Source: an uncultured Planctomycetota bacterium (GTDB lineage Bacteria; Planctomycetota; Planctomycetia; Planctomycetales; Planctomycetaceae). From it: a DNA stretch of 64,000 nt. A program made the position numbers and the translations under genes. Below are positions 1,427 through 60,234 of the stretch, one piece after another; the stretch's first letter is position 1; every line of letters starts with the position of its first letter. The DNA is taken from positions 958,036 to 1,022,035 of the forward strand of contig CAVXHA010000003.1 in assembly GCA_963761455.1 (NCBI GenBank), written 5' to 3'. The notes below the pieces were generated by a model that was not told where the DNA came from, did no database searches, and saw only the letters and a program-made list of their open reading frames with translations.

Positions 1427-1458
1427 CGCGGACGCACCTCCGCTCGCAAGGTCCTTCC

Positions 1459-2716: not shown

Positions 2717-2827
2717 TCGACAATGGCACCAATCCATCCTGCTTGCTGGCCGCCAACTCGTCCGTCGCCGATCTGGATCGCCAGGCGCCGTGGCGCTGGT
2801 GCTTGTGGGCGGGTCCTGTTCGCGGGC

Positions 2828-13318: not shown

Positions 13319-13364
13319 GCCGATTCGCTCACCACAATCCAGTGTCGTTTAATCCCGGTGTCGT

Positions 13365-21003: not shown

Positions 21004-23403
21004 GTGAATTTTAAGGCCGATCTGAGTGGCAACAACCGGACGATCTGACTCCCAGCCAGCGACGGGCCGTCGAACAGACGGAAGGACCCCTGCTTGGTGC
21101 TGGCCGGCCCCGGTTCCGGCAAGACACGGGTCATCACGCGGCGCATCGCCCGCATTATCGAGCAGGGGGTCGATCCGGCCCGCGTCCTGGCGATCACCTT
21201 CACCAACAAGGCGGCCGGCGAAATGGCGGACCGCGTCGCCCGGCTCTTGCCCGGACACGCGGGTCTGGATCAGCACGTTTCACCGCTTCTGCGCCGGCCT
21301 CTTGCGAGCACGGGCGAACGCGGTCGGACTCAGATCGAATTTCACCATCCTCGACGACGATGACCAGCGCCGGATCGTCCGCGGGGTCATCAAGGAGTCT
21401 GCAGTACGACCCGGTCACCTTCCCTCCCGAGCGAATTGCCGAGCGGATCAGCCGCGCGAAGAACGACCTGTTGACCGCCGAGGCATTCCGCCAAGCCCGC
21501 CAGGAGCGGATCGGCGACCTGTTCGATTCGGTCGTCGACGAAAGTCTATCCCGAATATCAGCGTCGCCTGAGGGAATCGAACGCGGTCGACTTTGACGAC
21601 TTGCTGCTGGACGTCGTGCAGATTCTGACCGAGAACCCGGAGATCCGGCACGAGCTCGACGATCGCTTCCGCTACGTGCTCGTCGACGAATACCAGGACA
21701 CGAACCTCGCGCAATACCAGATCATCGCCGGCCTTTCGCACGATTATCCCAACTTGTGCGTGACGGGCGATCCCGATCAATCGATTTACGGCTGGCGTGG
21801 GGCGCGGATCGAAAACATCCTGCGGTTTGAGGCCGACTATCCGCAGGCGGCCGTCATTCGCCTGGAGGAGAATTTCCGCAGCACGAAATCGATCCTGGCG
21901 GCGGCCGACCGCTTGATCGCCCACAACGTCCGCCGCAAAGCGAAGACGATGCGGACCGAGAACCCGGAGGGGGCTCCGGTCGAAGTGCTGCGTTTCGACG
22001 ACGCACAGGCCGAAGCGGAAGGGATTGCGCGGGCGATCCGCGCGGCCGTCGAGCCGGGGCCGATGCGCTGGTGCGACGTCGCCATTTTTTATCGCATCAA
22101 CGCTCTCTCGCGGGAATTCGAAACGGCCCTGACCCGCCACCGCATTCCCTATCAAGATCGCCGGCGGGTTCGCGTTTTACGAGCGGTCCGAGGTCAAGGA
22201 CGTGCTGGCCTACTTGCGGCTGGTCGCCAATCCCCAGGATCGGCCCGCCTTTCTCCGCGTGGTGAACGTCCCCGTGCGGGGCATCGGCGACAAGAGCCTC
22301 GGAACGGCTCGTCGCCTGGGCCGAGGCGAACCGGCTGACGCTGCTCGAGGCGGCCGCCCGGGCCGACCGAATGTCCCGCAATTGCCGCGGCGGGCCGTCC
22401 AAGCGCTCGACGAGATTTGCCCGCCTGATCGCCGAGTTCAGCGACGCGCGGCTCGAATCGGTCCGCATGCTGCTCGAACGGATCCTCGACCGCAACGGGC
22501 TATCTGCCGTCGCTGAAGGCAAGCAACTCGCCGCAGGACCAGGAGCGATTGGCCAACGTCGAGGAGCTGGTCAACGCGGCCGACCCAATACGACGCCGGC
22601 GCCGACGGGAATCCGACGCTGGAAGGCTTTCTTGGAAACCACGGCCCTCGTCGCCGACGTCGACAGCGTCGACGGAGCGGCCAATCGCGTCACGCTGATG
22701 ACGCTGCATTCGGCCAAGGGGCTCGAGTTTCCCGTCGTCTATATCGTGGGAGTCGAGCAGAACCTCTTGCCGCACGAACGGGCCCTGCGCACCGACGATC
22801 CGGGCGAATACGAAGAGGAACGCCGGCTGCTGTTCGTCGGCATGACCCGGGCCCGCCAGCGGCTCTATCTCACGCGGACGCAGAAACCGCGGCAGTTCGC
22901 GGCCGATCGCTGAGCAGCATTCCCAGCGAGTTCCTGCGGGAAATCGGCGTGTCCGAGACGGTGATCCTGCCGCCCGAACGCTGCCTGGGCGGCCGATGCG
23001 CCGGACGAGGGCGAAGAGCACCCGGGCCCCGATTACGACAACGTCTCGCAGGAGTCGCCGGACGAGGACCAGCACGGCACGAGCGCCACGCCGTGGAAGC
23101 CGCGCACTGGCTTCGCCGACAATCCGTCGAACGTCCGCCCGCCATCGGCGAACGACGCCGATCGGCCTCGCTTGATCACGGGCGCCGATTTGCTGGCCGG
23201 CGCCGCGGCGCGCGCCGGCCGAGCTGCCGCTCGGTTTTGCCTTGGGCATGGCGGTCCGGCATCCCCAATACGGCGTGGGCCGCATCGTCAAAATCGGCGG
23301 ATTCGCCAAGAACCGGACGATCACCGTCGAATTCGACGATGACGGTCGCAGCGAAACGTTCGTCACGGGAAAGAATCCGCTGCAACCCGTCGGCGCCGGA
23401 TAA
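21004..23403 (+). CDS. uvrD: UvrD/PcrA/Rep-family ATP-dependent DNA helicase. About a dozen apparent frameshifts.
   Basis: Motif [15 protein letters not shown], Ia [18 protein letters not shown], motif [75 protein letters not shown], and a C-terminal Tudor-like [19 protein letters not shown]. The pieces alternate among all three plus frames. Stop at 23401-23403. Confidence 0.85.
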
Positions 23404-24574: not shown

Positions 24575-24693
24575 GGAGCTGAAGGCTTCCGCCGTCGCGA
24601 GGTGCCTTCGGATCAGTTCGTCCGAGATCCGCGTCACTGGCGGTCTGTCCCGTCAAGATCCAGATAGAGGTATCCCGCCTGTGAGTCATTTCG

Positions 24694-25925
24694 ATGCCCG
24701 TCCGTCTGTCGCCGTCTGATTCTCGCCCTCGTGCCTGCCTCGTCGCCGCGGACCGGCCGCCGCTTTCCGCACAGACTCGCGAGGAATTCGACAGAGCCCG
24801 GCAGCGGATGGTGTCGGAGTTCATCCAGAAGGAGGGGATCAAGAACCCGCGGGTGCTCGCAGGCGATGCGGACCGTGCCCCGGCACGAGTTCGTGCCGCT
24901 GATGCTGCGGCCCAAGGCCTACGTCGATGCGGCCTGGTCGATCGGTTACAAGCAGACGATCTCGCCCCCCTTCGTCGTCGCCTACATGACCGAGGCGCTC
25001 GATCCGCAGCCCACCGACCGCGTGCTCGAGATCGGCACGGGCAGCGGCTATCAGGCGGCCGTCCTGTCGCTGTTGGTGAAAGAGGTCTACTCGATCGAGA
25101 TCGTCGAGCCGCTGGGCAGCGCGGCCGAGCGGCGGCTGAAGCACCTGGGTTACCACAACGTCAAAACGAAGGTCGGCGACGGCTATCTCGGCTGGCCGGA
25201 GCATGCCCCCTTCGACAAGATCATCGTCACCTGCTCGCCCGAAAACGTCCCCAAGCCGCTCGTCGACCAGCTCCGCGAAGGGGGCCGGATGGTCATCCCG
25301 CTGGGCGAGCGGTTTCACCAGGACATTTACTTGCTGGAAAAGAAGGACGGGAAAGCTCGTCCGCAAACACTTGATTCCGACCCTCTTCGTTCCCATGACG
25401 GGCCGCTCGGAAAAAGAGCGGACCGTGAAGCCCGACCCGCTCCATCCACAGATCCATGAACGGCGGCTTCGAGGAGCTCGACGCCGACGGGAACCCTGCC
25501 GTTTGGTATTACCTCCGCCAGATGACGCTCGTCAAAGAGGACGCGCCGGAAGGGAAGTTGTTCGTGCTCGGTTCGAGAACGAGGATCCCGGCCGAATCTC
25601 CCAGGCGCTGCAGGGCATGGCGGTCGACGGGCGGTCGATCGGATCGCTGCACTTTACGCTCAAGGTGCGTGCCGACAGGATCGTCGACGGGCCGGAACCG
25701 TACAACAAAGCCAATTTGCAGGTGACATTTCTTCGACATCAGCCGCCGCCCGATCGGCGACGCGATCGCAGCCCGGCTGGATCGGCACGTTCAATTGGCG
25801 CAGACGCGCCGGAACGCGTTCGCGTCCCCGAAACGGCGCGGGAGGCCATCATTCGCATCGGATTAGGCGGGGCGACGGGCCGGCTGTACGTCGACGCCAT
25901 CAAGATGACGGCCCAGCGGCGATGA
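24694..25925 (+). CDS. pcm: Protein-L-isoaspartate O-methyltransferase with signal-like N-terminus and a C-terminal extension of about 170 aa, copy 1. About 5 apparent frameshifts.
   Basis: [34 protein letters not shown] motif [53 protein letters not shown]. Then a C-terminal ..[39 protein letters not shown]. Confidence 0.8.
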
Positions 25926-25976: not shown

Positions 25977-27214
25977 ATGAGAAGGACCGGGGCACGAGTG
26001 CTTCCTTTGACCCTGCTGCCCGCGTTCGGCTGTTGCTATTGGCGGCCGATTCCCGGCTTTCTGCACAGACCCACGAGGAATATGACCGGGCGCGGCAGCG
26101 GATGGTTTCCGAGTTCCTCGAGAAGAGAAGGGATCAAGAACCCGCGCGTGCTGGCGGCGATGCGGCGCGTTCCCCGGCATGAGTTCGTCCCGTCCTCGCA
26201 GCGGAGCGGCCTACGAAGACTCGGGGCTGCTCATCGGGTACAAGCAGACGATTACCTGGCCTTTTGTCGTCGCCTTCATGACCGAAGCCCTCGACCCGCA
26301 GCCGACGGACCGTGTGTTGGAGATCGGCACCGGGACCGGATATCAGGCCGCCGTTTTGTCGCTTTTGGTCGACGAGGTCGATTCGATCGAAATCATTCCT
26401 GCCCTGGGAAAGGCGGCCGAAAAACGGCTCAAGCGCCTGGGATACAAAAACGTCAAAACGAAAATTGGCGACGGTTATCTCGGCTGGCCCGAGAGGGCAC
26501 CCTTCGACAAGATCATCCTCACCTGCTCTCCCGAAAAAATCCCGCAGCCGCTCGTCGACCAGCTCAAAGAGGGGGGACGGATGGTCCTGCCGCTGGGCAG
26601 TCGCTACGAGCAGGCGGTCACGCTCCTCGAAAAGAGAAAGGGGCGGCTCGACCGAAAGGATCTGATGCAGACGTTTTTCGTGCCCATGACGGGCCGCTCG
26701 GACAGAGACCGCACGACAAAGTCCGACCCGCTCAATCCGGAGATCCATAACGGAAGTTTCGAGGAGCGCGAGGCGAACGGAGCGTTCTCCGGCTGGTATT
26801 ACCAACTCCAAATGACGCCCAGTGATCGCGACACGCCCGGGGGCCGTTTCTGCGTCCAATTCGACAACGAAGAACCGAGTCGGCGGTCTCAGGCTCTTCA
26901 GGCGATGGCGGTCGACGGATCGAGAATCGCCTCGCTGCGCTTCCGCCTCAAGTTTCGCGCTGACAAAATTGTGGACGGAGCGCCAGCCTTTTGAAAAGGC
27001 TGGGCTCCAGGTGAGCTTCCACAATTTTCGCCGCCTGATGGGCGATGTGATCGCGGTCCACTGCGTCGGGTCGTCCGACTGGCAGACCGCCAGTGCCGCC
27101 GTGCCGGTTCCGGAGCAAGCCCGCGAGACCGTGATCCGCATTGGATTGAACGGGGCGACGGGCCGTCTTTGGCTCGACGACATCGTGCTCACGCCCGAGC
27201 GGCGCGATCGGTAA
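25977..27214 (+). CDS. pcm: Protein-L-isoaspartate O-methyltransferase paralog with the same architecture, copy 2. About 4 apparent frameshifts.
   Basis: Colinear with copy 1: [84 protein letters not shown], ..WYYQLQMT..SQALQAMAVDG..VIRIGLNGATGRLWLDDIVL. Confidence 0.8.
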
Positions 27215-35377: not shown

Positions 35378-36893
35378 ATGAAGCCGCCGCTTGACTCGAC
35401 GCCTCACGATCGACATGGCTTGTTGCGAGTCGGTTTTCTTTTGATTCTCGCCGCGGTCGCGTGCACCGCGGACGTCGCGCTTTCCGCCGCGCCTTCAGAC
35501 GGCAGCGTTCGCCGTCCGAACATCGTGATTGTCATGCCGGACGACGTCGGCTATGGCGACTTTTCATGTCACGGCAATCCGGTCATACACACGCCACATG
35601 TCGATGCGTTTTACCGGCAGAGCGTGCGGTTCACCGATTTTCACGTCAGCCCGACTTGCGCGCCGACACGGTTCGCCTTGATGACAGGACGGCACGAGTT
35701 CAAGTCAGGGGTCACGCATACGATCTATGAGCGCGAGCGGATGAGCCTGAAGGCCGTCACGATTGCCCAAGTCTTGCGAAACTCCGGGTACGCGACGGGG
35801 ATCTTTGGCAAATGGCATTTGGGCGACGAGCCCGTCTATCAGCCTGATCGGCGAGGCTTCGAGGAGGTCTTCATTCACGGGGCCGGCGGAATCGGCCAGA
35901 CGTTCCCCGGAAGCTGTGGTGATGCGCCCGGAAACACGTATTTCAACCCGGCCATCCTTCACAATGGGACCTTCGAAAGGACACACGGCTATTGCACCGA
36001 CGTTTTTTTCCGGCAGGCCCTCCGCTGGATCGATCGCGAGCCGCAGCGGCGGCCACCCCTTTTTCGCCTACATTACGCCGAACGCCGCCCACGCGCCGTT
36101 ACAAGTCCCCGACGACTATTTTCACCGTTACCAAGGCAAAGTGCCCGACAACGTGGCCCGCTTTTTCGGAATGATCGAGAACATTGACGACAACTTTGGC
36201 GCGCTCCTCAGGAAGCTCAACGAATGGGGTCTCGCCAACAACACGCTTGTCGTCTTCATGACCGACAACGGCGGCACTCAGGGAACGACCGTCTTCAATG
36301 CCGGGATGCGCGGCATGAAGAATACGCCCTACCAGGGGGGGACTCGCGTCCCGTCGTTCTGGCGTTGGCCGGCTGCCTTCCCGGGGGGACGCGACGTCTC
36401 CACGTTGACCGCCCACATCGATGTCTTTCCAACTCTCGCTGAAGTGGCCGGCGCGAAGTTACCGGCCGACGTGCAGACGCAAGTGGAAGGACGCAGCCTC
36501 GTGGACCTCCTCAAAACCCAAGGGGCCGAGTTTGCCGACCGGTACCTAGTGACTCATTGTGGTCGTTGGCGGCGGGGCCAGGCCGCGAAGGCTAAGTTCA
36601 CGCAGTGCTCCATCCGCAACGGCCGCTTCACGCTGGTCAACAATGCGGAACTCTATGATCTGCGGAATGATCCCGGCGAGACGACGAACGTGCTGGCCCG
36701 GCACCCGGAAGTGGTCGCCGCGTTCCGGGCCGCCTATGACCGCTGGTGGAACGACGTCCTTCCCCGGTTCGAAAATGAAGATGCGATCGGCCCGGACGTC
36801 AACCCGTTCAAGGAACGGTACTGGAAACAGTTCGGCGGAGGCCCCGACGCGGACCTTTTGCGCAGGATGAAGCCGGAGCCGGCTCGGCAATGA
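35378..36893 (+). CDS. Cys-type sulfatase (arylsulfatase A family) with signal peptide. One apparent frameshift near 36040-36060.
   Basis: NIVIVMPDDVGYGDFS, SPTCAPTRFALMTGR, GKWHLG, FMTDNGG, MKNTPYQGGTRVPSF, AELYDLRNDPGETTNV. ORFs 35378..36187 and 35763..36893. Confidence 0.9.
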
Positions 36894-37420: not shown

Positions 37421-39938
37421 TCATTTGCGCTTGGCAGACGGACTCAAGGCAATGCGGAAGCCCAGGTTAAAAACCCGCTTCCCCGGCGAGTACCAATTCC
37501 GCAACGCCGACCGGCAACTCCCGGCAGTGCTGCCCCAGCCTCCGCCCCGTAGCACCCGGACCGAGCCCTTTAGCGGACCCTGCGGGTCCGTGCCGCCGGT
37601 TAAGGTCTCCGCGTACAAGTCCCGGCACCATTCCCACACGTTGCCGTGCATGTCGGACAGCCCCCACCGATTCGTCTTCTTTTGGCCCACCTGATGCGCG
37701 TATCTTCTCATCCGCACCGTCGGTGTTCTTGGTGAACCAGGCGTACCCCGGCAGGTCCGATTCATCGTCCCCGAATGAGAATCGGGATTTCGCCCCGGCC
37801 CGGCAGGCGTATTCCCATTGTGCCTCTGTCGGCAACCTGTATTTCCAGCGCACCGGCAGACGCCCCGCGTCGCGCTCCATCTCCGTCAGCTTCTCGCAAA
37901 ATCTAATAGCGTCCTCCCAGCTCACGTAGGTCGCCGGGTAGTCCTCACCCTCTTTCACGTAATTCTGGCCGCTCCACGGCGTGGTCTGCATGACGCGCTG
38001 CCATTCCGACTGCGTCACTCCGTGTTGGCCCAGCCAGAACCCCTTCGTGAGGGTGACGTCGACCGGTCCCTCGTTGCCAATGCGGCCCAGCTCAGTGGGC
38101 GGACTTCCCATTCGGAATTTGCCTGGAGGACACCATGCGAGCGGAAGCTTTAGTCCGTTGTCATCGCGAGTTTCGCCGGCTGGTCGAACCGAGCCCCGGC
38201 CGGCGCCGCCCTTTTTCTTGGGAAAGAGCGCGCTCACGACAGTGCAAAGTCGCGAGAAGTGGGGATCCAAGGGTTCTGCGAGGGCATCGATCCGATGGGG
38301 CCCGCGGAGAAAAGGAGCCAGCATCGCCGGCTGAACATCCTCGATGCAGAAGGTCACGATGGTGGCCCCCGCCCGCGCCGCAAGCTCGATCTCTTGCAAC
38401 ACCCGTTCGGATTTGTTCGAAAAGGAGGACAGGATCAGGAGGACGACGCGGCTCTCCTTGATTGCGCGGCGGCTCGATTTTTCCCAACTCCGGCCCGCAG
38501 CGATATCGCGTGGCGCGATCCAGCAAGGGATGCCGGCTGCTTCGAGCATGTCGCAGGACGTCTCGGCGATCGTTTGGTCCTTTCGCGAAAAGCTGATGAA
38601 GAGCTTGGCCGCCGAAGAACGGTGCGGCGCCGCGGCGACGCTGCCTGTTCCCGGGGTGCGCAACAGTCGGCTGAGCGCGGCAGCCAATTCGCCCGCACTC
38701 TTGAACCGGAGATTCGGATTCTTTGGCCATGCAACGGGAGCAAATCGCCTCAAGCGGCGCGGGAACGGACGGATTGACCGAGCGCAGGGGCTCGAACCTT
38801 CCGTCGGAAACGCGGCGGATGATCTCCAGGACGTTTGTGCCCTGAAACGGCGGTCGCCCGGCCAGCGCAGTAGTAAAGGATGGCACCCATCGCATAAATG
38901 TCGGTCGGCGGCCCGACAAGCGACGTTTTCCCCGCAGCCTGTTCGGGCGACATATAGCTCGGAGTCCCCAGAACCTCGCCGCTGGCGGTGATCCCCTCCG
39001 GCAAGTCGATTCGCCGAGCCAGCCCAAAGTCGGTTACGCGTGGCTGGGCGGCGGCAGTCAGCAGGATGTTCTGAGGCTTCAAGTCGCGATGGACGATTCC
39101 CCGCGCATGGGCATGCTCGATGGCATCGGCGATGTCCCGAACGATTCGAGCCGCCTCGAGCGGCGGCAGCGCCGCCTTTGGCAAGATGGTCGGCAAGACT
39201 GCGTCCCTCGACGAATGCCATACACAGGAAATACTTCCCGTCCCGGCTGCCGAAGTCGTACACCGTCACGATGCCGGGATGATCAAGCCGGGCGGCGGCA
39301 CGGGCTTCAACCTGAAACCGCTTCACTCCCACTTCCGATTCGACGTGACCCGGGTGGATCAACTTGATGGCAACGAATCGGTCCAGTTCGACGTCGCGTG
39401 CCTTCCAGACCACCGCCGTGCCGCCGCGGCCTAGCTCCCCGATCAGTTCATACCGGTCGAACAACTGCTCGGCGACCGACTGCTCGCCTGTGGCGGATCG
39501 AATCAGGGTCTCATCGCCTGTCAACCGCGTGGCATCCGAAGCCGTTTCACTCCCGGGCGTGCCGCTCATCGTCTCTTCGGCGACACGAGGGGGTGCCGAT
39601 TGCGTGCCGTCCGCATGCGCCCCGTCCGTCTGCGGCGGGTGTGACGGCGGCAGCTCGACGGCGGACGTTCGCCCGTGAGGCCCAAAGCGCTTTTCAAGCT
39701 GGTCCGCAACCTGGGGGAACCGCTTGAAGTATTCCGCCGGGCTCGGCGTCTCTTTGTACTTCTCACGAAGGCAGTATTCGGAATAGATAAAATCGGCGAG
39801 CAACTCGGGATCGGACCGGAGATCGGAGTCGCGCACGACGTACGACTCGACCAGGGCACGCTGACCCTGTCGCCAGCTCTTACTCTGATCATTTTGGAGC
39901 GCCAGAAGGCGTTCCAAATGAACCGGCGTTTCGGTCAT
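37421..39938 (-). CDS. Ser/Thr kinase, TIR domain and FGE/SUMF1-fold domain fusion. About 5 apparent frameshifts, mostly in the kinase part.
   Basis: Kinase (about 38760-39440): GRGGTAVVWKA, VAIKLI, HRDLKPQNILL, DFGLA, GTPSYMSPEQ. TIR (about 38330-38610): KLFISFSRKDQ..GIPCWIAPRDIAAGRSWEKSSRRAIKESRVVLLILSSFSNKSERVLQEIELA. FGE fold (about 37421-38150): WCPPGKFRMGSP, WEYACRAG, GLSDMHGNVWEWCRD, RVLRGGGW. Confidence 0.8.
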
Positions 39939-45096: not shown

Positions 45097-46721
<1,625 letters not shown>

Positions 46722-46782
46722 GGAGGCGTCTCGCGGAAATGTCTCTTGGCTAGCCCCTGGTCCCTGACTTCTGGTCCCTCTT

Positions 46783-47572
46783 TCAGATCGTCATGCTCGA
46801 GAATCCGCCGTCGACGACGATGTTGGCCCCCGTCAGGAAGCTTCCGGCGTTTGGGGAGGCCAACAGGAGCAGGGCGCCGGCCAGTTCTTTGGGCAGGCCG
46901 AACCGTTTGAGAGGCGTGTGGCGCATGATATTCTCGATCCGCTCTTCGGTCAGGATGGATTTATTTTGTTCGGCAGGGAAAAACCCGGGCGACAGTGCGT
47001 TCACGCGGATGCCTAAAGGCGCCCATTCGCGGGCCAGGTTCTGCGTCAGATTGATGACGGCCGCCTTGGTTGCGGCGTACGTGAAGACGCGCGATAAGGG
47101 AGTGATCGCCGAAAGCGACGCGATATTGATAATCGAGCCGCGCGTTCCCCGCTGAATCATGTATTTGCCGAAGACCTGGCAGGCGAGCCGGACGGCGCGG
47201 CAGGTTCACGTTGATAATTCGGTCCCACTCGTCGTCGGTGATTTCGAGGAACGGCGTGGCCGCGTTGACTCCGGCGCCGTTGACGACAACGTCGGCGGCG
47301 CGGTTGGCTCGCGTCAAATGAGCGGCCACCGCCTCGAGATCCTTGCGGCTGGTGCAGTCGGCAGCCAAAAACTCGGCGCTGCCGCCGCAATCCGCGAGAC
47401 GCCCGACACAATCGCTTCCCCGATTGCGATCGCGACCAACCACGATCGCGTGCGCCCCCGCTCCCGCCAGCGCCTCGCAAAACGCGCCCCCCAGCACGCC
47501 CGTTCCGCCAATCACGACCGCCGTCCGTCCCTGCAGGCCGTAAAGCCCCTTGAGATAGGATTCAGGCGTCAT
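46783..47572 (-). CDS. Short-chain dehydrogenase/reductase (SDR). One apparent frameshift near 47185.
   Basis: [15 protein letters not shown] (TGxxxGxG), NGAG, catalytic [17 protein letters not shown]. ORFs 46961..47620 and 46783..47160. Confidence 0.85.
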
Positions 47573-47787
47573 GGAGTCTCCGGCCCGAAGAAAGGAAGAC
47601 GATGGAATTGCGTTGCGCACCGACCATCTTAATCAAAACCGGCCGGCCGGTGAAATCGAGCGTGGCTCGGGTGCAAACTATGGACGGGACTGCGAGCGGC
47701 CCCTTGTGTCATTCAATCCCGTTCCGCCAAGTGCGGGCGTCCCTACGCAGCGCTCCCTCCGGGAACGCCTGACCATCGCCATCATCA

Positions 47788-48599
47788 CTACTCGGGGACT
47801 TCATCGGTCCGGACGTTGAAGGTTTCCAGTTGATTCGAGCCAAAGGTCGTTGTGAGCGCGGCGTCGGCGGCATCGCGGCCGTGCGCCATGAGAATGCGGC
47901 CGATCCGCGGAATGTTGTTGCGCGGGTCAAATGACCACCAACGTCCGTCCAGAAAGGCTTCGAACCAGCGCTGAAATCCATTGGATTGGACGACGGCGGT
48001 ACGCCGATGTCGCCGAGATAGCCGGTGCAATAACGGGCCGGAATGTTCATGCACCGGCAGAGCGTGATGGCCAGATGGGTAAAGTCGCGGCAGACGCCCA
48101 CGCGTTCACGATATGTCTCCAACGCGGTCCGGTTGGCCCGCGCCTGCTGGTAGTCAAAGCGGATGTGCTGATAGACGAAATTACAGATCGATTGCACTCG
48201 CGGCCAGCCCGGCCGCGTCGAATTGAAGAGAGAGCCGGCGATGTCTTTCAGTTCGCTGTCCACCTCGCAATAGCGGCTGCCGAGGAGGAACAGCAGAACA
48301 TCGTCCGGCAAATCTTCCACGTTGTGCTGTTGGGCATTCCAGGCCTGTGGATCAGGCTGTCCGCTATCTTCGACGGTTGCATCGTTGCGAAGCACGACTC
48401 GGCCACCGGGGGCGAACAGACGCCCGCACCGGTTTCCGAAGGAGTCGAAGAATTCGGAAATGGGTACGCGAGGCTCCACCTCTAAGCATTCGGGTTTTCG
48501 GAGTGTCGACGCACGCGACGGATGCACATAGAGCATCAGCAGCACCGCCGTCGGCTGTGAGAAACGAAACGCAATTTCGTAGCCGACACGGATCAGCAT
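47788..48599 (-). CDS. Transglutaminase-like cysteine protease family protein. One apparent frameshift near 47980.
   Basis: Bact_transglu_N-like N-terminus (MLIRVGYEIAFRF..), core GVCRDFTHLAITLCRCMNIPARYCTGYL, then WFEAFLDGRWWSFDPRNN in a second frame. Confidence 0.8.
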
Positions 48600-48824
48600 A
48601 ATCCCTCAGCGGGTTGTGGCTGGCCATCGGGGTGCATGAAGTTGCATGAATCATCCACTATCCGCCGTCGGCTGTCGATGCTGCCATCCGACAGCATCCC
48701 CGCTCTGGCTTTCGCGGATCCGTCTGCTAGGATGCAGCCAGGGTCTTCCGCTCGGTTCCTGCCGCGGAGGGCGATCGGAGACGCTCAGCGGATGATGGGG
48801 GGGAAGCGAACGAGGAGTGCAATC

Positions 48825-49489: not shown

Positions 49490-51363
49490 ATGAACCAGAC
49501 TTCGTCGACAGCCCCGGACGCTTTTCTTGCGATGGCCCACCGTTTGTCGCTCCTGGATGAAGAGGCCGCCCGCAAGCTCGATGCCGAACGCGGCACGGCC
49601 GGCGTGTCGACGGCGCAGCTCGCCTTGAGGCACGGATTGCTCGATCCCGTTCAGATCGACATCGTCGAAACGCTTCTCGCGCCGACGAGGTCGTCCCCGG
49701 CTTTCAAATTCTCGACTTGATCGCCCAGGGGGGGATGGGAGTCGTCTTTCGCGCGCGGCAGAAAAGCCTCGACCGCATCGTGGCCGTCAAGACGATTCTT
49801 GTGAGCCAGATGCACGACCAGACGTCGCTGGCGCGGTTCGAACAGGAGGCCCTGACCGTCGCGCGGCTCCGACATCCGAACATCGTGGCCGCACACGATC
49901 TGGGGCGGCACCAGGGTCGGCTTTTTTTTGTAATGGAGCTAATCGAGGGCGAGGACGTCGAGCAGACGATCGAAAAGGAGGGACCGCTGGAGGAAGGGGT
50001 CGTCTGGAAGCTGCTGCGGCAGGCGGCCGTCGGCCTCTCGCACGCCGCCTCGGCGGGGATCATCCATCGCGACATCAAGCCGGCCAATCTCCTGCTCGTC
50101 GACCCGCCGGCCGGGTTCGAGCTGCCGGGTGGACTGAAGATGGTGAAAATCACTGACTTCGGCCTCGCCTTTCTGACGCGGGACGTCGACGTCAAGACGC
50201 GTTTGACCCAGGCCAACACGGCCATCGGCAGCCCGCATTACCTCGCTCCGGAACAACTCGAAGGCAATTCATTCGACCATCGGGTCGACATCTATTCTTT
50301 GGGAGCGACTGCCTACCACATGCTGGCAGGCGTCGCCCCCTTCCACGCGAAGACGCTGCCGCAGATTATCGCCCGGAAGCTGGCGGCCGAGTCGCTCGAT
50401 CTGCGAGCAGAGTTCTCCCACGTCTCTGCCGCGTCGGCCGAGCTTGTCCGCCGCATGACGGACCGCGATCCGGCCCGCCGCATCGCCGATTATTCCCAAC
50501 TCATTTCGCAGATCGACTCGCTGAGCCTGGCCGACTCACCGCGGGCGCCGCCGCCGCGCCCGTCATCCGCACTGGCGGCGACTCAGCTCTTCCGCACCGA
50601 TCCGACGCCCGGACAGACGGCGATCGGCACAGTCGACTTGCGACCGCCCCGCCCGCGATTGGCCGGGCGTCGGAAGTTTTTGATGGCTTTGGGAGGCGGA
50701 ACGATCGCCGCCTCGGCACTGGCTGCGGGCGCCTGGTCGCTCTGGTCGTCACGAAGTCACAAGTTGTCGCCGACACTCGTCCCCACGGGCCTCGGGCTGA
50801 GTCTGTTTGACGGCCTCAGCCTGTCCGGGTGGCGGACGCAGTCCGGCGGCTGGACCGTGCGAAGGAATTCCGAGGGAGGGCGCGTCCTTTCCGGAACGAG
50901 CGGCCGGACAAGCCACGTGCTGCTGAAACAGGTCGGCAACAAGAAAACCGCGCTGAGGCAGTTCAGCCTGTCGGTCGTCGTTCAGCTTCACGGCGCGACG
51001 GCGGCCGAGATCGAATTCGGTGCCAGCGAAGTGGACCAAGACGGCGAGCGGCTGGTCGCGCGACTCGAAAAGTTGAGCGGCAGCGTGGGACGGCGGGCAA
51101 CCGATTCGGGCACGTTCGTTCGCCTGTCGGATCTCGAAAGCCCTCTCGATCGCGCCGCGAGCGACCCTCACACGTTGACGGTCCAGCGGCAGCCCGGCTT
51201 TTGGTGGGTCTTACTCGACGAAAGCCCGATCGGCTCGGTGCCCATCCAGGCCGGGCAGCGCAGGCCGCCCTCGTTCGCTCTTGTGGCCGAGGAAGGCGAA
51301 GTCTGGTTCTCCGACATCACGCTCCAAGAACTCGCCCTGCCGCAACCGCACAGCGATTCGTAG
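49490..51363 (+). CDS. Ser/Thr kinase with one TM helix and an extracytoplasmic DUF1080/LamG-like domain. One apparent frameshift near 49690.
   Basis: GGMGVVFRA, VAVKTI, HRDIKPANLLL, DFGLA, GSPHYLAPE. TM LMALGGGTIAASALAAGAWSLW. C-terminal LFDGLSLSGWRTQSGGWTV..GEVWFSDITLQEL. Confidence 0.85.
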
Positions 51364-52579: not shown

Positions 52580-54040
52580 TTATTTCGCGGCCCCTGCCGG
52601 ACGCGCTCCTGTGTTTGTGGTCTCGACCGGGACGACCTTCTCGCCCGGGAAGAGGTCGGCCGTTGGGTGCCGCACGACGAGGTCATGCGGCTGGAGACCC
52701 GAAAGGATCTCGGCCTGGACGCCGCTGTCACGGCCGACTTTGACCGGAATAAGCTGCGCAAGCCCGTTTCGCACGACATAAACCGATGTCGTTGTTCCAT
52801 CGGCGCTGCTCACCAGGCAGGTCGACGGAACGCTCAGCTCCTTGGTGGAGCGGGTCAATTGAATCGTCACGCGGCCGAACATGCCGTCGCGCAGCTCGTT
52901 GGACGTGTTTTCCAAGTCGACCTCGACCCGCATGGTCCGGTCGGTGGGGTCCAGCGAATTGCCAATCCGCGCAACCTTGGCGTGGAATTCCTTGCCGGCC
53001 AAGGCATCCAGCTCGACCACGGCGGGATCGCCGGGATCGGTGTACGGCACATAGGTCTCGGGCATCTTCAAGATCACTCGCATCTTGTCGGTGCGGGCGA
53101 CGACCAACAGCGGCGTTCCACCCCCCTGGTCGGCGGCCCGGATGAAATCTCCCACATGGAAACTGCGCTTCGTGATGACGCCGGTGTAATCTTTGGGTGC
53201 GCGGATTTCGAGGTAATCGACAAACACCTTGGCCTTCGCCAGGACGGCGTTGGCCACCTGAACTTTGGCCTTGGCATTGGCGAGGTCGGCCTGCGCTTCC
53301 ACAATCTTGGCCGTTTTTGCCGCGACTTCCGCGATGGCCGTCTGGATCGCCGCCTTCGCCGCGTTTTCGGCCGCCTGCGCGGCGTCGCGCTCCTTGAGGT
53401 TCTGGTCCACGAGTTTCTCTTCGATCGCCCTCAGGTCGTAGAGATGCCGGATGCGGTCGTACTCGATCTGACGGAACGCCAAGTAAGCCGTCTCGCGTTT
53501 CAAATCGGCCCGTTTCTCGCCGACGTTCGCCTCGGCCGCCTCCAGGTCGGCCTTTGCCCTGTCGATCCCCGCCTCCGTCAGTTTCACTTGCGATTTGGCC
53601 TGGTCGAGTTGGGCTCTGGCTTGATCGACCGCCTGCACCAGCTCCGGCGCGGAAATCTTCGCCAGCAATTGGCCGGGCTTAACGCTGTCGCCGATGTCCA
53701 CGTTCTGTTCCTGGAGGTAGCCGGAAACCTTCGCGTAGAGGTCCGCGTAATCAAACGCTTTGACCGTGCCTGGCTCCGGAACGGATCGAGCCATGTTCCC
53801 GACACCAGGGCGGATGACGTCGACCCGCATGGATGTCGTGGGGGAAGATGCGTCGGCGGTCTTCGGCGCTGCCGTCGCCGCGGCGGCCGCTGATTCCGGT
53901 CCCGGGTCACCCGCACCGTTCGTTTTCGACCAATGGAACGCGAAAATCACCAGCAGGGCAACGACGACCGCGATTCCGAGTATCCATCTTCTTCGGACGA
54001 TCTGCTGCCCGACGGACTCGATCCGAGCTTGTACGTTCAT
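52580..54040 (-). CDS. HlyD-family periplasmic adaptor (MFP) with N-terminal TM anchor and a long coiled coil
   Basis: Inner start MNVQARIE at 54040. TM WILGIAVVVALLVIFAF. Lipoyl-like VSGYLQEQNVDIGDSVKPGQLLAKISAPEL, a long Ala/Glu/Lys coiled coil, IRAPKDYTGVITKR, beta-barrel and C-terminal domain. Intact. Confidence 0.85.
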   Translation of the reverse strand: MNVQARIESVGQQIVRRRWILGIAVVVALLVIFAFHWSKTNGAGDPGPESAAAAATAAPKTADASSPTTSMRVDVIRPGVGNMARSVPEPGTVKAFDYADLYAKVSGYLQEQNVDIGDSVKPGQLLAKISAPELVQAVDQARAQLDQAKSQVKLTEAGIDRAKADLEAAEANVGEKRADLKRETAYLAFRQIEYDRIRHLYDLRAIEEKLVDQNLKERDAAQAAENAAKAAIQTAIAEVAAKTAKIVEAQADLANAKAKVQVANAVLAKAKVFVDYLEIRAPKDYTGVITKRSFHVGDFIRAADQGGGTPLLVVARTDKMRVILKMPETYVPYTDPGDPAVVELDALAGKEFHAKVARIGNSLDPTDRTMRVEVDLENTSNELRDGMFGRVTIQLTRSTKELSVPSTCLVSSADGTTTSVYVVRNGLAQLIPVKVGRDSGVQAEILSGLQPHDLVVRHPTADLFPGEKVVPVETTNTGARPAGAAK

Positions 54041-54122
54041 GGCCAATGCAATGCCTTTGTGGCGGACGGGCGGGTTCGAGCGCTTCCTATTAGATTGTAG
54101 AGGCCGGTTCAAGCCTTTGAAA

Positions 54123-55879
54123 CTACTTCGAGCGCTTGCCGTCTGTGCCCGTGCCCACTTGCAGCGGATCGGGGAGGGCCGCGCTGGGAGTCTCGCCGAT
54201 CGCGACGAAGAGCTCAAACTGGGCCATATCGTATCCGACGAGCGCGGCAATGAACTCGTCGCGGGCCTCGACTAACAGGTTGACACTATTGATTGCCTCC
54301 AGGGGCAGGGCCTCGCCGCCGCGTGTGCGGGCGATTTCTTCACGTGCCCCGGTCGCCGCCGTTTGCAACCGTCCCCGAGCCAATTCCAATTGCTGCCGCC
54401 TCGCCTCCGATTGGGCGTAGGCATCGGCCACTTCGCGGCCAATTTGGTTGAGTGCCAGGCCCCGCCGCGCCAGGGCGTCATCGCGTTCGGCCCGCCGTTC
54501 CTTTTGAATGGCCGCGTTCCCAAAGCCGAGGTTTTGGAGGGTCCAGACCGCATACACGTCGAAGTCGGTTCGGCCCGACGTCGCTTGAAACAGCAAGCCC
54601 GCCTGGTCTCCGCCCCCGCCGAAGCCCCCTGCGCTGTAGCCGACCGAAAGCAATGGCAGCCAGGGCGCGCGTATTCTTGTTTCAATCGGTATTCCGCCGC
54701 CGCAATGTCCGCCGCGCGGGCGGCCGCCTCGGGCCGAGCGTTCAATGCGATTTGAATCAGCTCTTCGACGCGATAGGTCGAATCGACCAGTTGCACGGGC
54801 TCCAGTGCGGCCCCGGCGGTCGTGAGGCGGATCGACGGATCGAGGTGGAGCGTCCGGGCCAAATCGGCCGAAGCGACCGCGACACTTTCCTGAGCCCGCT
54901 CTTCGCGGGAATGCAGCAGTAGGGCATCCGTTCGCGCCCGATTATAGTCGCCGACCCGGCCCTGCCCCGTCCGGGCGAACGCGGCGGTGGCCTGCACCAC
55001 TTGTCGAAGATTGTCCTCGGACCGCCGGATCGCTTCGAGTGCGGCTTGCGTTCCCACGAGACCGAGGTACCGCCGGGCGACATCCAACAAGACCGCGTTT
55101 TCGATGCCGTGCGAGTCGGCGCGACGGCTGTTGACGACCTGCCGGGCGACAAGGGGGGCAAAATAGACATCGCCGAGATGGCCGAACAGCTGCACCGCCG
55201 GAACGGCGACGGTTTGCGAGCCGACCGCCCAATCCCCGCCGCCGAAATAGACCGACTGCAAATCAACCTTCTCGATTTGACCATCGCCGGCTTGAAGCGT
55301 GCCTTGATGGAGATGATACATGGCTCCCGCGTTGAGCGACGGAAGCATCATCGCGCGGGCCTGAAGCTGGAGAGCCAGCGCCTCCTGGATCGCCTCGCGC
55401 CCCAGCGCGATCGTCGGATTCTCGGCCTCGGCCAAGCGCAAGACCGTGGAAAGGTCGACCGTGTACTCTTCCCCCGTCACGGGGACGATCTCCTCCCGCG
55501 ACAACCCCGCCAGCTCGTTCCCAATGCGGGCGGCCTTTTGCAGAGGCCGCGCTTCTTGTGGTGTGGAAATGCCACCTGGAGATCGCAGGTCATCAAGGGT
55601 TGGGCCCGCCGCGGGATCAGCAGGGGGCGCCGGCGGAGGAGGGAGAAGGTCGATGACCACAAACCGCCCCCCTCCCGCTTCAATCTTTAGTTCTGACGTC
55701 GCAGCCTGGTCGGCGCCGTGAGCATGTCCGGCCCGCAGTCCCGCAACGCAAAGCGCGGCCAAGCAGATGCCGGCGACAAACGTCCACCGAGACCAAGCCC
55801 TCCGCCAACCGGCGGTCCTGGCAAAGATCGATTTGGAGCAAGTCTGCGGCATCATGAGCGTGGGCCGTACGCAAATCAC
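54123..55879 (-). CDS. TolC-like outer membrane factor, paralog 1. One apparent frameshift near 54660.
   Basis: YTVDLSTVLRLAEAENPTIALGREAIQEA..LPSLNAGA.. and a second repeat ..LIQIALNARPE.. then ..VGYSAGGFGGGGD..VWTLQNLGFGN..EAINSVNLLVEARDEFIAALVGYDMAQFELFVAIG. ORFs 54272..55879 and 54123..54653. Confidence 0.8.
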
Positions 55880-55897
55880 AGGCGCGAGTATTCCCTG

Positions 55898-57556: not shown

Positions 57557-57573
57557 TCGTGCTTCGGATTTCG
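57381..57573. repeat. REP-like inverted repeat (same motif family as 23407-23541) overlapping the 5' end of the TolC paralog 2 ORF
   Basis: The left arm ..aatgacgaaagaaatccgaagtacgaagg (to 57426) pairs with the right arm cttcgtgcttcgtacttgggattttcttcgtcatt.. (from 57523). The arms are about 100 nt apart. Confidence 0.75.
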
Positions 57574-57590
57574 CCTTCTTGGCCGACTGC

Positions 57591-59110: not shown

Positions 59111-59407
59111 AGGGACGCCCGTACACTTTTTGATTCAGCGAGTGGGCCGCGGAAGGCGCGGACCCCGGCTTTTCGGCGCGTGGAAGTGCCTCATCAGGTC
59201 ATCGGCCGAATCAACTTGCCGAATTTAACGATTCTGCCGATTTTGACGGCCGACGACTCTGAGAGGGCCATTCGGGGAATCGCCGGAACCGCGAAGAGAG
59301 CGATTCAGGCCAACGCAGAAGGCGCGACGCACTTGCGGGCAAGCCGGCAGCCGCCCCCACGAGGCTGGCCCTTGTGTCGCCTTTTTCGACTGGCTTACGC
59401 TTGTTCT

Positions 59408-60190: not shown

Positions 60191-60234
60191 ATTGATCGGG
60201 AGAGGCATGCCCGTTTTCGAAGAGGTGAGCTGCG

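What the first reader, a model, noticed from the sequence alone, without database searches (positions are those of the whole stretch)
37421..39938. Kinase-TIR-FGE three-domain fusion
Stitched reading gives a Hanks kinase, then a TIR-like domain (FISFSRKD..CWIAPRDI..G..W...I..AI..S.VVLLILS..S..S..V..EIELA), then a C-terminal FGE/SUMF1-fold domain.

Kinase-FGE fusions are frequent in planctomycetes and some other phyla. I do not recognise a TIR domain inserted between the two as a described arrangement.

Bacterial TIR domains are known NAD+-cleaving or signal-generating modules in anti-phage systems such as Thoeris. A kinase-coupled TIR could be a regulated NADase or an oligomerisation switch.

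Two caveats. The kinase portion needs about 5 frame corrections. The FGE domain here may bind a ligand rather than mature the three sulfatases encoded in this window.
Basis: partly seen in the sequence, partly recalled or inferred. Interest (0 to 1): 0.7.

Follow-up and report, generated by a model that had tools for sequence, protein, structure and literature searches.

The report
Kinase–TIR–lectin-like sensor fusion protein
The window really does encode one long cytoplasmic protein that joins an active-looking protein kinase, a TIR domain with the NAD-cleaving glutamate, and a non-catalytic FGE-fold binding domain; it belongs to a small conserved planctomycete family, and it is a new combination of parts that are already known to be fused in pairs.

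Summary
One gene lies on the minus strand (39938→37421). After four single-base frame corrections (not about five) it gives an 837/838-aa protein: N-terminal helical domain, Pkinase (E=6e-49), TIR_2 (E=1.6e-17) and FGE-sulfatase (E=9e-44).

Five intact homologues (823-878 aa, 52-64% identity, full length) have the same order, so this is a real but rare family.

The frameshifts are probably not gene decay. About 33 comparable frame switches occur across the 64 kb, including in a UvrD-like helicase and a sulfatase. This points to an error-prone long-read assembly.

The kinase motifs are intact. The TIR model (pLDDT 91.7) matches NADase TIRs, and the invariant E516 aligns with SPARTA's catalytic E77. 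The FGE domain lacks the catalytic Cys pair and is closest to the T. denticola DGR variable protein. It is therefore a lectin-like sensor, not a sulfatase maturase. There is no membrane segment, no conserved neighbour, no defence island and no DGR repeat in the window.

TIR–FGE, kinase–TIR and kinase–FGE pairs all exist elsewhere. "Effector domains N-terminal to a C-terminal FGS sensor" is a published theme.

Verdict: a new variant of a known kind. Function is inferred: a ligand-sensing, kinase-regulated TIR effector. Interest is moderate.

The parts
37421..39938 (-). Whole gene for the kinase-TIR-FGE protein (837/838 aa after four 1-nt frame corrections), stop codon included
   Evidence: Full-length alignment to intact homologues P0002-P0006.
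39684..39938 (-). N-terminal alpha-helical domain (aa 1-85), conserved in the family and shared with many planctomycete Ser/Thr kinases
   Evidence: Alignment A1. A local HMM finds it on kinases with other C-termini. It is helical with pLDDT 84-91 in the P0002 model. No Pfam or PADLOC hit.
39453..39683 (-). Low-complexity, poorly conserved linker (aa 86-162)
   Evidence: Mean pairwise identity 0.31. pLDDT below 50 in the homologue model.
38700..39452 (-). Hanks-type Ser/Thr protein kinase domain (aa 163-413), split over three frames in the deposited sequence
   Evidence: Pfam Pkinase E=6e-49. The motifs VAIK, the alpha-C Glu, HRDLKPxN, DFG and SPE are all conserved.
39173..39173 (-). Frame change 1: one surplus nucleotide (approximate position) in GGCG(G)CGCTG, between ...LAKG and ALPPLEAARIV
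38866..38866 (-). Frame change 2: one surplus nucleotide (approximate position) in TACTAC(T)GCGCTG; the true reading is ILYYALAGRPPF, as in the homologues
38721..38721 (-). Frame change 3: one surplus nucleotide (approximate position) between CMAK and (D/E/N)PNLRFKSAGE
38214..38612 (-). TIR domain (aa 443-575; Pfam TIR_2 core 447-553 = 38280-38600), in one uninterrupted frame
   Evidence: Pfam TIR_2 E=1.6e-17. AlphaFold2 model pLDDT 91.7. Foldseek matches RPP1, SPARTA, SARM1 and AbTir TIRs. The family profile hits TIR chains in the PDB.
38391..38393 (-). Codon of Glu516, the predicted catalytic glutamate of the TIR domain (motif S-E-R-V-L-Q-E-I)
   Evidence: Invariant in the family and in the wider TIR clade. 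It aligns with E77 of SPARTA TIR-APAZ, whose E77A mutant loses NADase activity (PMC9097488).
37448..38132 (-). FGE-sulfatase-fold (C-type-lectin-like, 'FGS') domain (aa 603-830), predicted non-catalytic sensor
   Evidence: Pfam E=9.4e-44. Best PDB relatives are T. denticola variable protein 2y3c (E=2.5e-32) and PvdO. The human FGE C336 position is Ser/Leu/Val, and only C808 is retained.
37703..37703 (-). Frame change 4: one surplus nucleotide (approximate position) between ...GADEK and YAHQVGQKK, inside the FGE domain

Best explanation
This is one gene for a soluble cytoplasmic four-module protein: N-terminal helical domain, active Hanks Ser/Thr kinase, TIR domain, and a C-terminal FGE-fold lectin-like domain. 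It belongs to a small family seen mainly in Planctomycetota-type metagenomic contigs.

The four frameshifts in the window are most likely 1-nt insertion errors of a low-accuracy long-read assembly, so the gene is probably intact in the organism.

Shown here:
- The architecture and its conservation.
- Intact kinase catalytic motifs.
- A TIR fold with the invariant catalytic-position Glu.
- Loss of the FGE catalytic Cys pair.
- Absence of membrane segments.
- Absence of conserved neighbours.

Inferred:
- The C-terminal FGE-fold domain acts as an intracellular ligand sensor, as proposed for 'FGS' domains.
- Ligand binding drives self-association.
- Self-association assembles the composite TIR active site, so that NAD+ is cleaved (depletion or a nucleotide signal).
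- The kinase, through autophosphorylation or substrate phosphorylation, serves as the regulatory switch. It takes the place that a STAND/KAP NTPase occupies in the described effector-NTPase-FGS conflict proteins.
- The gene works as a stand-alone, single-chain sensor-switch-effector.
For: Architecture and stitching:
-.

Family:
- Five intact full-length homologues share all Pfam domains and align end to end.
- Only four representatives exist among 1.84 billion 50%-identity clusters.

Frameshifts as artefact:
- About 33 same-strand frame switches with no nearby stop codon occur across the window.
- Consecutive UvrD-helicase profile segments are spread over three frames.
- The Sulfatase profile is split 1-171 / 160-301 over two frames.
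- The contig is 1.36 Mb.
- The other truncated family members (P0007, P0017) also come from very long contigs, whereas the intact ones come from 3.8-73 kb contigs.

Kinase:
- Motifs are conserved.

TIR:
- Pfam hit, confident model and structural matches to NADase TIRs, with TMq up to 0.83 to SPARTA.
- E516 is invariant and aligned to catalytic E77.

FGE domain:
- It is non-catalytic and nearest to a DGR ligand-binding protein.

Location and context:
- No membrane segment: the maximum Kyte-Doolittle 19-residue hydropathy is 1.0-1.4.
- The three contexts examined share no neighbours.

Published framework:
- FGS is described as a C-terminal intracellular sensor with TIR, kinase or NTPase domains N-terminal to it (PMC7159879, PMC8195603, PMC10907252, PMC13581612).
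Against: - No biochemical evidence exists for any member of this family, or for this very large TIR clade.
- The BB-loop Pro of the RDxxPG box is replaced (RDIAAG).
- The Trp of the WxxxE motif is Arg. SPARTA also lacks that Trp.
- There is no defence-island context. The neighbours are carbohydrate-metabolism genes.
- PADLOC gives only generic kinase hits and weak TIR hits.
- Planctomycetes carry many kinase-FGE paralogues that may be ordinary signalling proteins.
- The window copy has Ala in place of the third Gly of the kinase P-loop.
- The full-length model was too poor (pLDDT 60.9, pTM 0.33) to show any inter-domain regulation.
- Assembly error is inferred from frameshift density, not from reads.
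Confidence: 0.5

Rival explanations
1. Ordinary signalling kinase. The protein is one of the many planctomycete Ser/Thr kinases with variable C-terminal sensor modules. The TIR acts only as a non-enzymatic homotypic interaction or oligomerisation adaptor. The FGE-fold domain senses an endogenous metabolite or glycan. No NAD+ cleavage and no role in conflict are involved.
For: - The N-terminal domain plus kinase chassis recurs with tandem kinase, TPR, WD40 and FGE C-termini. The closest relatives lacking a TIR (P0019, P0021) are Nterm-kinase-FGE.
- Neighbourhoods are housekeeping or carbohydrate genes with no defence genes.
- The BB-loop Pro is substituted.
- No specific PADLOC family is hit.
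Against: - The Glu at the catalytic position is invariant in the family and across a clade of tens of thousands of representative proteins. A pure scaffold is not expected to conserve it so strictly.
- The best structural matches include many enzymatic TIRs.
Confidence: 0.3
2. Decayed pseudogene. The four frameshifts are real in the organism, so this copy makes no three-domain protein.
For: - The deposited sequence carries four frame disruptions.
- The P-loop deviates from all homologues: GRGGTAVV against GRGGMGVV.
- Two other family members (P0007, P0017) are also truncated.
Against: - All four lesions are single-base insertions, with no lost residues and no in-frame stops in the corrected reading.
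- Identity to homologues is even along the whole length.
- Frame switches occur throughout the window, including in a UvrD-like helicase (five or more pieces), a sulfatase and an ABC transporter.
- Truncated members all come from very long contigs, while intact members come from shorter contigs (3.8-73 kb).
Confidence: 0.12
3. DGR-diversified receptor. The C-terminal FGE-fold domain is a variable region rewritten by a diversity-generating retroelement, as in T. denticola TvpA and the CLec targets of multicellular bacteria.
For: - The best PDB match of the domain is the T. denticola DGR variable protein (E=2.5e-32).
- Proteins with Pkinase+CLec and CHAT+TIR+CLec architectures are reported DGR targets (PMC10907252).
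- The last 40 residues or so differ markedly between homologues.
Against: - No template-repeat copy of the gene's 3' end exists anywhere in the 64-kb window.
- The C-terminal segment is no more variable than the TIR or the N-terminal domain (identity 0.58 against 0.54-0.56).
- No retroelement was noticed in the neighbourhoods L001 and L002.
Confidence: 0.05
4. Genuine kinase-regulated formylglycine-generating enzyme that matures the Cys-type sulfatases encoded nearby.
For: - A strong Pfam FGE-sulfatase hit.
- A Cys-type sulfatase (motif C-A-P-T-R) lies convergently downstream at 35378-36893.
Against: - The two catalytic, copper-binding cysteines of FGE (human C336/C341) are not both present in any family member. 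Position 336 is Ser/Leu/Val.
- Other PDB relatives are non-FGE members of the fold: PvdO, PorK/GldK and TvpA.
- Sulfatase linkage is not conserved in L001 or L002.
Confidence: 0.03

Closest known systems
Effector-NTPase-FGS and other FGS-sensor conflict proteins (Kaur, Burroughs, Iyer & Aravind, eLife 2020 and 2021; Doré et al., PNAS 2024)
   Same: - The FGE-fold ('FGS'/CLec) domain is at the extreme C-terminus, with all other domains N-terminal to it.
- A TIR serves as the fused effector.
- A fused regulatory enzyme domain sits in the same chain.
- The location is intracellular.
- The FGS domain is closest to the T. denticola TvpA type.
   Different: - The switch domain is a Hanks kinase, not a STAND, KAP or MoxR NTPase.
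- The TIR sits between the switch and the sensor, not at the N-terminus.
- No EAD adaptor partners, vWA-MoxR genes or DGR are nearby.
- The lineage is Planctomycetota-like rather than cyanobacteria or other multicellular bacteria.
Planctomycete/verrucomicrobial Ser/Thr kinase-FGE-sulfatase fusion proteins
   Same: - The same N-terminal helical domain plus kinase chassis and the same type of C-terminal FGE domain.
- The closest relatives lacking a TIR, P0019 and P0021, are Nterm-kinase-FGE. L098 is a more distant kinase-FGE protein.
   Different: These relatives lack the ~135-aa TIR between kinase and FGE. The TIR-bearing form is rare, with about nine sequences found.
SPARTA TIR-APAZ, SARM1, AbTir and plant TNL TIR domains (NAD+-cleaving TIRs)
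   Same: - TIR fold: TMq 0.72-0.83 to SPARTA chains and about 0.7 to SARM1 and AbTir.
- The Glu at the catalytic position is present, with E516 aligned to SPARTA E77.
- Like SPARTA, it lacks the Trp of WxxxE.
   Different: - Sequence identity is only 14-22%.
- The partners differ: kinase and lectin-like domain rather than Argonaute, ARM-SAM or NB-LRR.
- Activity has not been tested.
- The BB-loop Pro is replaced.
The large bacterial 'VFISYSxKD...CWIAPRDIxPG...SxQVxREVERA' TIR_2 clade
   Same: - The window's TIR is a full-length member, matching profile positions 2-136 of 138.
- It shares the invariant Phe, Glu, Trp, Arg, Ser and Glu residues.
- The clade includes TIR-FGE proteins (P0144, P0162, P0183, P0227, P0268), a TIR-kinase (P0224) and a kinase-TIR (P0237).
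   Different: - In most clade members the TIR is N-terminal or in tandem arrays. Here it is internal.
- Some TIR-FGE relatives have a membrane segment between TIR and FGE. This family has none.
Thoeris (ThsA/ThsB)
   Same: It uses a bacterial TIR domain. Some clade relatives also hit the ThsB_TIR Pfam model.
   Different: - No ThsA (SIR2 or Macro-SLOG) gene lies in any of the three neighbourhoods.
- PADLOC ThsB hits are marginal (E=0.003).
- The architecture is unrelated.

Membership tests
TIR domain superfamily (Pfam TIR_2, PF13676) | Significant match to the family model above the curated threshold | tested here: met
   E=1.6e-17, 64.6 bits against a cutoff of 28. The family profile hits TIR chains in the PDB down to E=1.5e-9.
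TIR domain superfamily (Pfam TIR_2, PF13676) | Flavodoxin-like alpha/beta TIR fold | tested here: met
   AlphaFold2 model with pLDDT 91.7 and pTM 0.87. Foldseek probability 1.00 to RPP1, SPARTA, SARM1, AbTir, TLR and MyD88 TIRs.
NAD+-cleaving (enzymatic) TIR domains | Catalytic glutamate at the start of helix alpha-C | tested here: met
   E516 is invariant in the family and the wider clade. It aligns with SPARTA E77. E77A abolishes NADase activity (PMC9097488).
NAD+-cleaving (enzymatic) TIR domains | BB-loop / box-2 motif (RDxxPG) needed for the oligomeric composite active site | tested here: inconclusive
   R477, D478 and the Gly are conserved, but the Pro is Ala or Ser in most family members (RDIAAG, RDIVAG, RDVVSG). 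The functional consequence is unknown.
NAD+-cleaving (enzymatic) TIR domains | Measured NADase or cyclase activity | not testable with these tools
   Needs an enzyme assay.
Hanks-type Ser/Thr protein kinases | Pkinase fold with the catalytic Lys (VAIK), alpha-C Glu, HRDxKxxN, DFG and APE/SPE motifs | tested here: met
   Pfam E=6e-49. All motifs are present and conserved in six sequences. The window copy has Ala for the third P-loop Gly.
Formylglycine-generating enzyme (catalytic FGE/SUMF1) | FGE-sulfatase fold | tested here: met
   Pfam E=9.4e-44. PDB relatives include human and bacterial FGEs at E about 1e-15.
Formylglycine-generating enzyme (catalytic FGE/SUMF1) | Two catalytic, Cu(I)-binding cysteines (human C336 and C341) | tested here: not met
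   In the alignment to human FGE, the C336 position is Ser in the window protein and Leu or Val in homologues. Only one Cys (C808) is conserved in the segment.
DGR variable (target) proteins with FGE-type CLec fold | Template repeat matching the 3' variable region, plus a reverse transcriptase nearby | tested here: not met
   No repeat of the gene's 3' end occurs in the 64-kb window. No retroelement was noticed in L001 or L002. The rest of the 1.36-Mb contig could not be examined.
Effector-NTPase-FGS conflict systems (Kaur et al. 2021) | C-terminal FGS domain with effector domains N-terminal to it | tested here: met
   The order is Nterm-kinase-TIR-FGS. The syntax is described in PMC7159879.
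Effector-NTPase-FGS conflict systems (Kaur et al. 2021) | Central STAND, KAP or AP-GTPase NTPase switch, often with EAD partners or a DGR | tested here: not met
   No NTPase domain is in the protein. No such genes are in the neighbourhoods. A kinase occupies the regulatory position instead.
Thoeris | ThsB TIR protein encoded next to a ThsA (SIR2 or Macro-SLOG) effector | tested here: not met
   No ThsA-like neighbour. ThsB PADLOC hits are only E=0.003-0.004.
PD-T4-6 (single-gene Ser/Thr kinase defence, PADLOC) | Match to PD-T4-6 kinase models, plus an anti-phage phenotype | tested here: inconclusive
   The matches are strong (E down to 2e-86) but confined to the generic kinase domain. Such models match Hanks kinases in general. 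The phenotype cannot be tested here.

The most novel reading that the evidence does not exclude
A single-chain bacterial pattern-recognition receptor in which a Hanks kinase, rather than a STAND NTPase, gates a TIR NADase downstream of an intracellular lectin-like (FGS) sensor. It would be a fused prokaryotic counterpart of the receptor / TIR-adaptor / kinase logic of animal Toll signalling. It would also define a new stand-alone anti-invader system in Planctomycetota.
Probability: 0.2. Interest if true: 0.65.

Novelty: new variant of a known kind. Interest (0 to 1): 0.36.

Why it matters
If the inferred mechanism holds, this family would show that a protein kinase can replace the NTPase switch in sensor-switch-effector immune proteins. 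It would also give a compact, single-gene model for three questions:
- How phosphorylation controls a TIR NADase.
- What intracellular FGE-fold lectin domains recognise.
- How immunity or signalling works in Planctomycetota, a phylum where it is almost unstudied.

The practical lesson is more certain. The apparent pseudogene state is an assembly-quality artefact, and automated annotation of this contig (for example the 823-aa mosaic ORF, P0001) is unreliable.

Tried and rejected
- **Own-contig look-up.** Exact-sequence look-ups of P0001 (the window's own mosaic ORF) and P0007 found nothing on record. The source organism and the rest of the contig could not be examined.
- **TIR-only word-index search.** It returned a single hit because of the index's limits. 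It was replaced by the exhaustive profile search.
- **Genome scan with the TIR+FGE alignment.** The tool's back-translated patterns came from generic FGE motifs. It yielded just two TIR-FGE loci without a kinase: L031 (Gemmatales) and L042 (Methanosarcinaceae).
- **Metagenome scan with the family-specific linker.** 72 loci, none with a TIR.
- **Full-length AlphaFold2 model of homologue P0002.** The 16-sequence alignment gave a poor model (pLDDT 60.9, pTM 0.33). It says nothing about inter-domain contacts. Only the helical N-terminal domain and the disordered linker are informative.
- **DNA references containing stop codons.** The Pfam tool refuses them. The search was redone with stops replaced by X.
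- **PADLOC PD-T4-6, MADS6 and PglW hits.** Rejected as evidence of defence, because they cover only the generic kinase domain.
- **DGR hypothesis.** Rejected for the window, because there is no template repeat.
- **True-FGE hypothesis.** Rejected because the Cys pair is missing.
Full report
**1. The observation**

The finding's coordinates (37421-39938) hold a single gene on the minus strand. The ORF list shows an 823-aa ORF (37467..39938, minus strand). Its N-terminus is kinase-like, its middle is compositionally odd, and it then reads cleanly through a TIR-like stretch and most of an FGE-like stretch. Overlapping minus-strand ORFs carry the missing kinase core and the FGE C-terminus.

Three-frame translation and inspection of the junctions give one continuous reading with four frame changes, not about five. 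The pieces are 39938-39174 | 39172-38867 | 38865-38722 | 38720-37704 | 37702-37424, followed by a stop at 37421-37423. Exactly one surplus nucleotide sits at each junction, and each shift is in the same (+1) direction.

The stitched 838-aa protein (837 aa after removing one duplicated Gly at junction 1) scores as follows against Pfam:
- Pkinase, residues 163-413, E=6e-49.
- TIR_2, residues 447-553, E=1.6e-17 (64.6 bits, cutoff 28).
- FGE-sulfatase, residues 603-830, E=9.4e-44.

**2. Real gene or wreck?**

A search of 5.8 billion protein clusters returned the window's own mosaic ORF (P0001, from a 1.36-Mb contig). It also returned five intact proteins of 823-878 aa (P0002-P0006) that cover 99-100% of the query. 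BLASTP identity is 51-62%, or 52-64% in the alignment. All five carry the same three Pfam domains.

The stitched protein aligns to them end to end. No residue is lost at any junction and there are no internal stops. The order of the domains is therefore a conserved property of a family.

The frameshifts are not specific to this gene:
- A codon-usage hidden Markov parse of the window switches frame on the same strand dozens of times.
- At 33 of those junctions there is no stop codon of the upstream frame within 30 nt.
- A UvrD-like helicase (21130-23395) has consecutive segments of the UvrD-helicase and UvrD_C profiles distributed over all three frames.
- The neighbouring sulfatase is split, with Sulfatase profile positions 1-171 in one frame and 160-301 in the next.
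- An ABC ATPase/permease region (690-4056) is similarly broken.

The other truncated family members (P0007, P0017) also come from very long contigs (933 kb and 150 kb). The intact ones come from contigs of 3.8-73 kb.

The most economical reading is an indel-rich long-read assembly. I put a true pseudogene at about 0.12. This rests on frameshift density, not on reads.

**3. Anatomy**

(a) *N-terminal domain, residues 1-85.* It is a conserved helical domain: pLDDT 84-91 in the homologue model, with no Pfam or PADLOC hit. It recurs at the N-terminus of many planctomycete kinases that carry other C-terminal modules, including tandem kinase domains, TPR, WD40 and FGE.

(b) *Linker, residues 86-162.* It is poorly conserved and predicted disordered.

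(c) *Kinase.* The motifs VAIK, the alpha-C Glu, HRDLKPxN, DFG and SPE are all present and conserved. The window copy alone has GRGGTAVV where the others have GRGGMGVV.

(d) *TIR, residues 443-575.*
- An AlphaFold2 model built on a 37-sequence alignment is confident (pLDDT 91.7, pTM 0.87).
- Its best PDB matches are TIR domains. These include the NAD+-cleaving RPP1, SPARTA TIR-APAZ (TMq up to 0.83), SARM1 and AbTir.
- Counting residues in the HMMER alignment, E516 in S-E-R-V-L-Q-E-I pairs with E77 of SPARTA TIR-APAZ. Its E77A mutant has no NADase activity (PMC9097488).
- E516 is invariant in the family and in the wider clade.
- The box-2/BB-loop motif is present as RDIAAG. The Arg, Asp and Gly are conserved, but the Pro is replaced in most family members.

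(e) *FGE-fold domain, residues 603-830.*
- The best solved relatives are the Treponema denticola DGR variable protein (2y3c, E=2.5e-32) and PvdO. True FGEs follow at about 1e-15.
- In the alignment to human FGE, the C336 position is Ser (Leu or Val in homologues). Only one Cys (C808) is conserved in the segment.
- The catalytic Cys pair is therefore absent, and the domain should bind rather than oxidise.

(f) *Location.* No hydrophobic segment reaches transmembrane values (maximum Kyte-Doolittle 19-residue hydropathy 1.0-1.4), and I saw no signal-peptide-like N-terminus by eye. The whole protein is predicted to be cytoplasmic. Some TIR-FGE relatives do have a membrane segment between TIR and FGE.

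**4. Distribution and relatives**

An exhaustive profile search with the family's TIR against 1.84 billion representatives found:
- 48,979 proteins at E≤1e-3.
- 3,026 proteins at E≤1e-30.

Most of these have the TIR at the N-terminus or in tandem arrays. Their consensus is VFISYSxKD...CWIAPRDIxPG...SxQVxREVERA.

Only four representatives are kinase-TIR-FGE: P0001, P0002, P0017 and P0130. Among the 150 best hits there are also:
- TIR-FGE proteins without a kinase: P0144, P0162, P0183, P0227, P0268.
- A TIR-kinase (P0224).
- A kinase-TIR (P0237).

A scan of species-representative genomes added TIR-FGE loci in a Gemmatales MAG and a Methanosarcinaceae MAG. The closest relatives lacking a TIR are Nterm-kinase-FGE proteins (P0019, P0021). 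This is consistent with insertion of a TIR into a kinase-FGE ancestor, an inference that has not been tested phylogenetically. A metagenome scan with the family-specific linker found no further members.

The family is therefore rare, but it is assembled from modules that are commonly paired.

**5. Context**

The window's neighbours are a sugar ABC transporter, a GFO/IDH/MocA oxidoreductase, glycoside hydrolases, a Cys-type sulfatase, a DUF2293 protein and a family-2 glycosyltransferase.

The two homologue loci (L001 and L002) share no neighbour with the window or with each other. None of the three contexts shows defence genes, a ThsA, an NTPase partner or a retroelement. No template repeat of the gene's 3' end exists in the window. 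The gene behaves as a stand-alone unit.

**6. How it most likely works**

*Shown:*
- An intact kinase.
- A TIR with the catalytic-position Glu.
- A non-catalytic FGE-fold domain.
- All modules in one soluble chain.

*Inferred from established knowledge:*
- TIR NADases need self-association to form a composite active site. This is known from SARM1, plant TNLs, AbTir and SPARTA.
- FGE-fold 'FGS'/CLec domains are ligand-binding scaffolds. They occur in DGR variable proteins, and they are proposed as intracellular invader sensors placed C-terminal to effectors (PMC7159879, PMC8195603, PMC10907252, PMC13581612).

I therefore propose that ligand binding by the C-terminal domain promotes oligomerisation and TIR activation. 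The kinase would act as the regulatory switch in the place usually held by a STAND/KAP NTPase.

I give the whole package about 0.5. The architecture, family membership and artefact parts stand at about 0.85. The NADase/sensor mechanism stands at about 0.35-0.4.

The main rival (0.3) is an ordinary planctomycete signalling kinase in which the TIR is a non-enzymatic adaptor. Its support is the housekeeping context and the large number of kinase-FGE paralogues. The evidence against it is the strict conservation of the Glu.

**7. Comparison with the known, and novelty**

- The TIR meets the tests for superfamily membership and for the catalytic Glu.
- The kinase meets the Hanks criteria.
- The FGE domain fails the defining Cys-pair test, so it is not an FGE enzyme.
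- Thoeris, DGR-target and effector-NTPase-FGS memberships each fail a defining feature: a ThsA partner, a template repeat with reverse transcriptase, and an NTPase, respectively.
- The PADLOC PD-T4-6, MADS6 and PglW hits are generic kinase matches. The TIR alone hits SAVED-TIR, SPARTA-type and ThsB models only weakly.

Full-text searches found no paper describing a kinase-TIR-FGE protein. The general syntax, diverse effector or signalling domains N-terminal to a C-terminal FGS, is published. The domain content of these proteins is already visible in precomputed Pfam annotation.

I rate it a new variant of a known kind, with an interest of 0.36.

Noticed in passing
whole window, e.g. 690-4056, 12091-14932, 21130-23395, 35378-36893, 45115-48600, 54651-57971: Frameshifts are pervasive. 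About 33 same-strand coding-frame switches have no nearby stop codon. Essential-looking genes (a UvrD-like helicase in five or more pieces, an ABC ATPase/permease, an L-aspartate-oxidase-like gene) are broken. This suggests an unpolished long-read assembly. Any gene call from this contig should be treated with caution.
   Followed up: yes
60229-63459 (+): A 1077-aa ORF combines a Ser/Thr kinase domain (Pkinase, aa 159-416) with a C-terminal HlyD-type membrane-fusion domain (HlyD_D23, Biotin_lipoyl_2). It sits next to HlyD and TolC-like (OEP) genes at 52583-59134. This is an unusual kinase / efflux-adaptor fusion.
   Followed up: partly
24668-25456 and 26086-26991 (+): Two tandem paralogous protein-L-isoaspartate O-methyltransferase (PCMT) genes lie within a ~1.29-kb direct duplication. 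The copies are 70-83% identical at the DNA level.
   Followed up: partly
54275-59134 (-): A run of diverged paralogous TolC-like outer-membrane efflux (OEP) genes. DNA repeats at spacings of 1645 and 1805 nt are 71-74% identical.
   Followed up: partly
35378-36893 (+): The convergent neighbour is a Cys-type sulfatase (motif C-A-P-T-R) split by one frameshift near 36045. No bona fide FGE or anSME was seen among the genes examined, so the maturase must lie elsewhere.
   Followed up: partly
39438-39422 (-), protein residues 168-180: The window copy's kinase P-loop reads GRGGTAVV where all five intact homologues read GRGGMGVV. This could be a real substitution of the third glycine or a further sequencing error.
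   Followed up: no
49561-51360 (+): A third Hanks-type Ser/Thr kinase gene (600 aa) lies in the same 64-kb window. It fits the kinase-rich genomes of Planctomycetota.
   Followed up: partly
P0122-P0180 (protein hits, not in the window): Many of the closest TIR relatives carry 2-7 tandem copies of this ~135-aa TIR unit in one polypeptide (for example P0129, 2023 aa with 7 copies, and P0138, 2208 aa with 7 copies). I did not see this poly-TIR architecture discussed in the papers I read.
   Followed up: no
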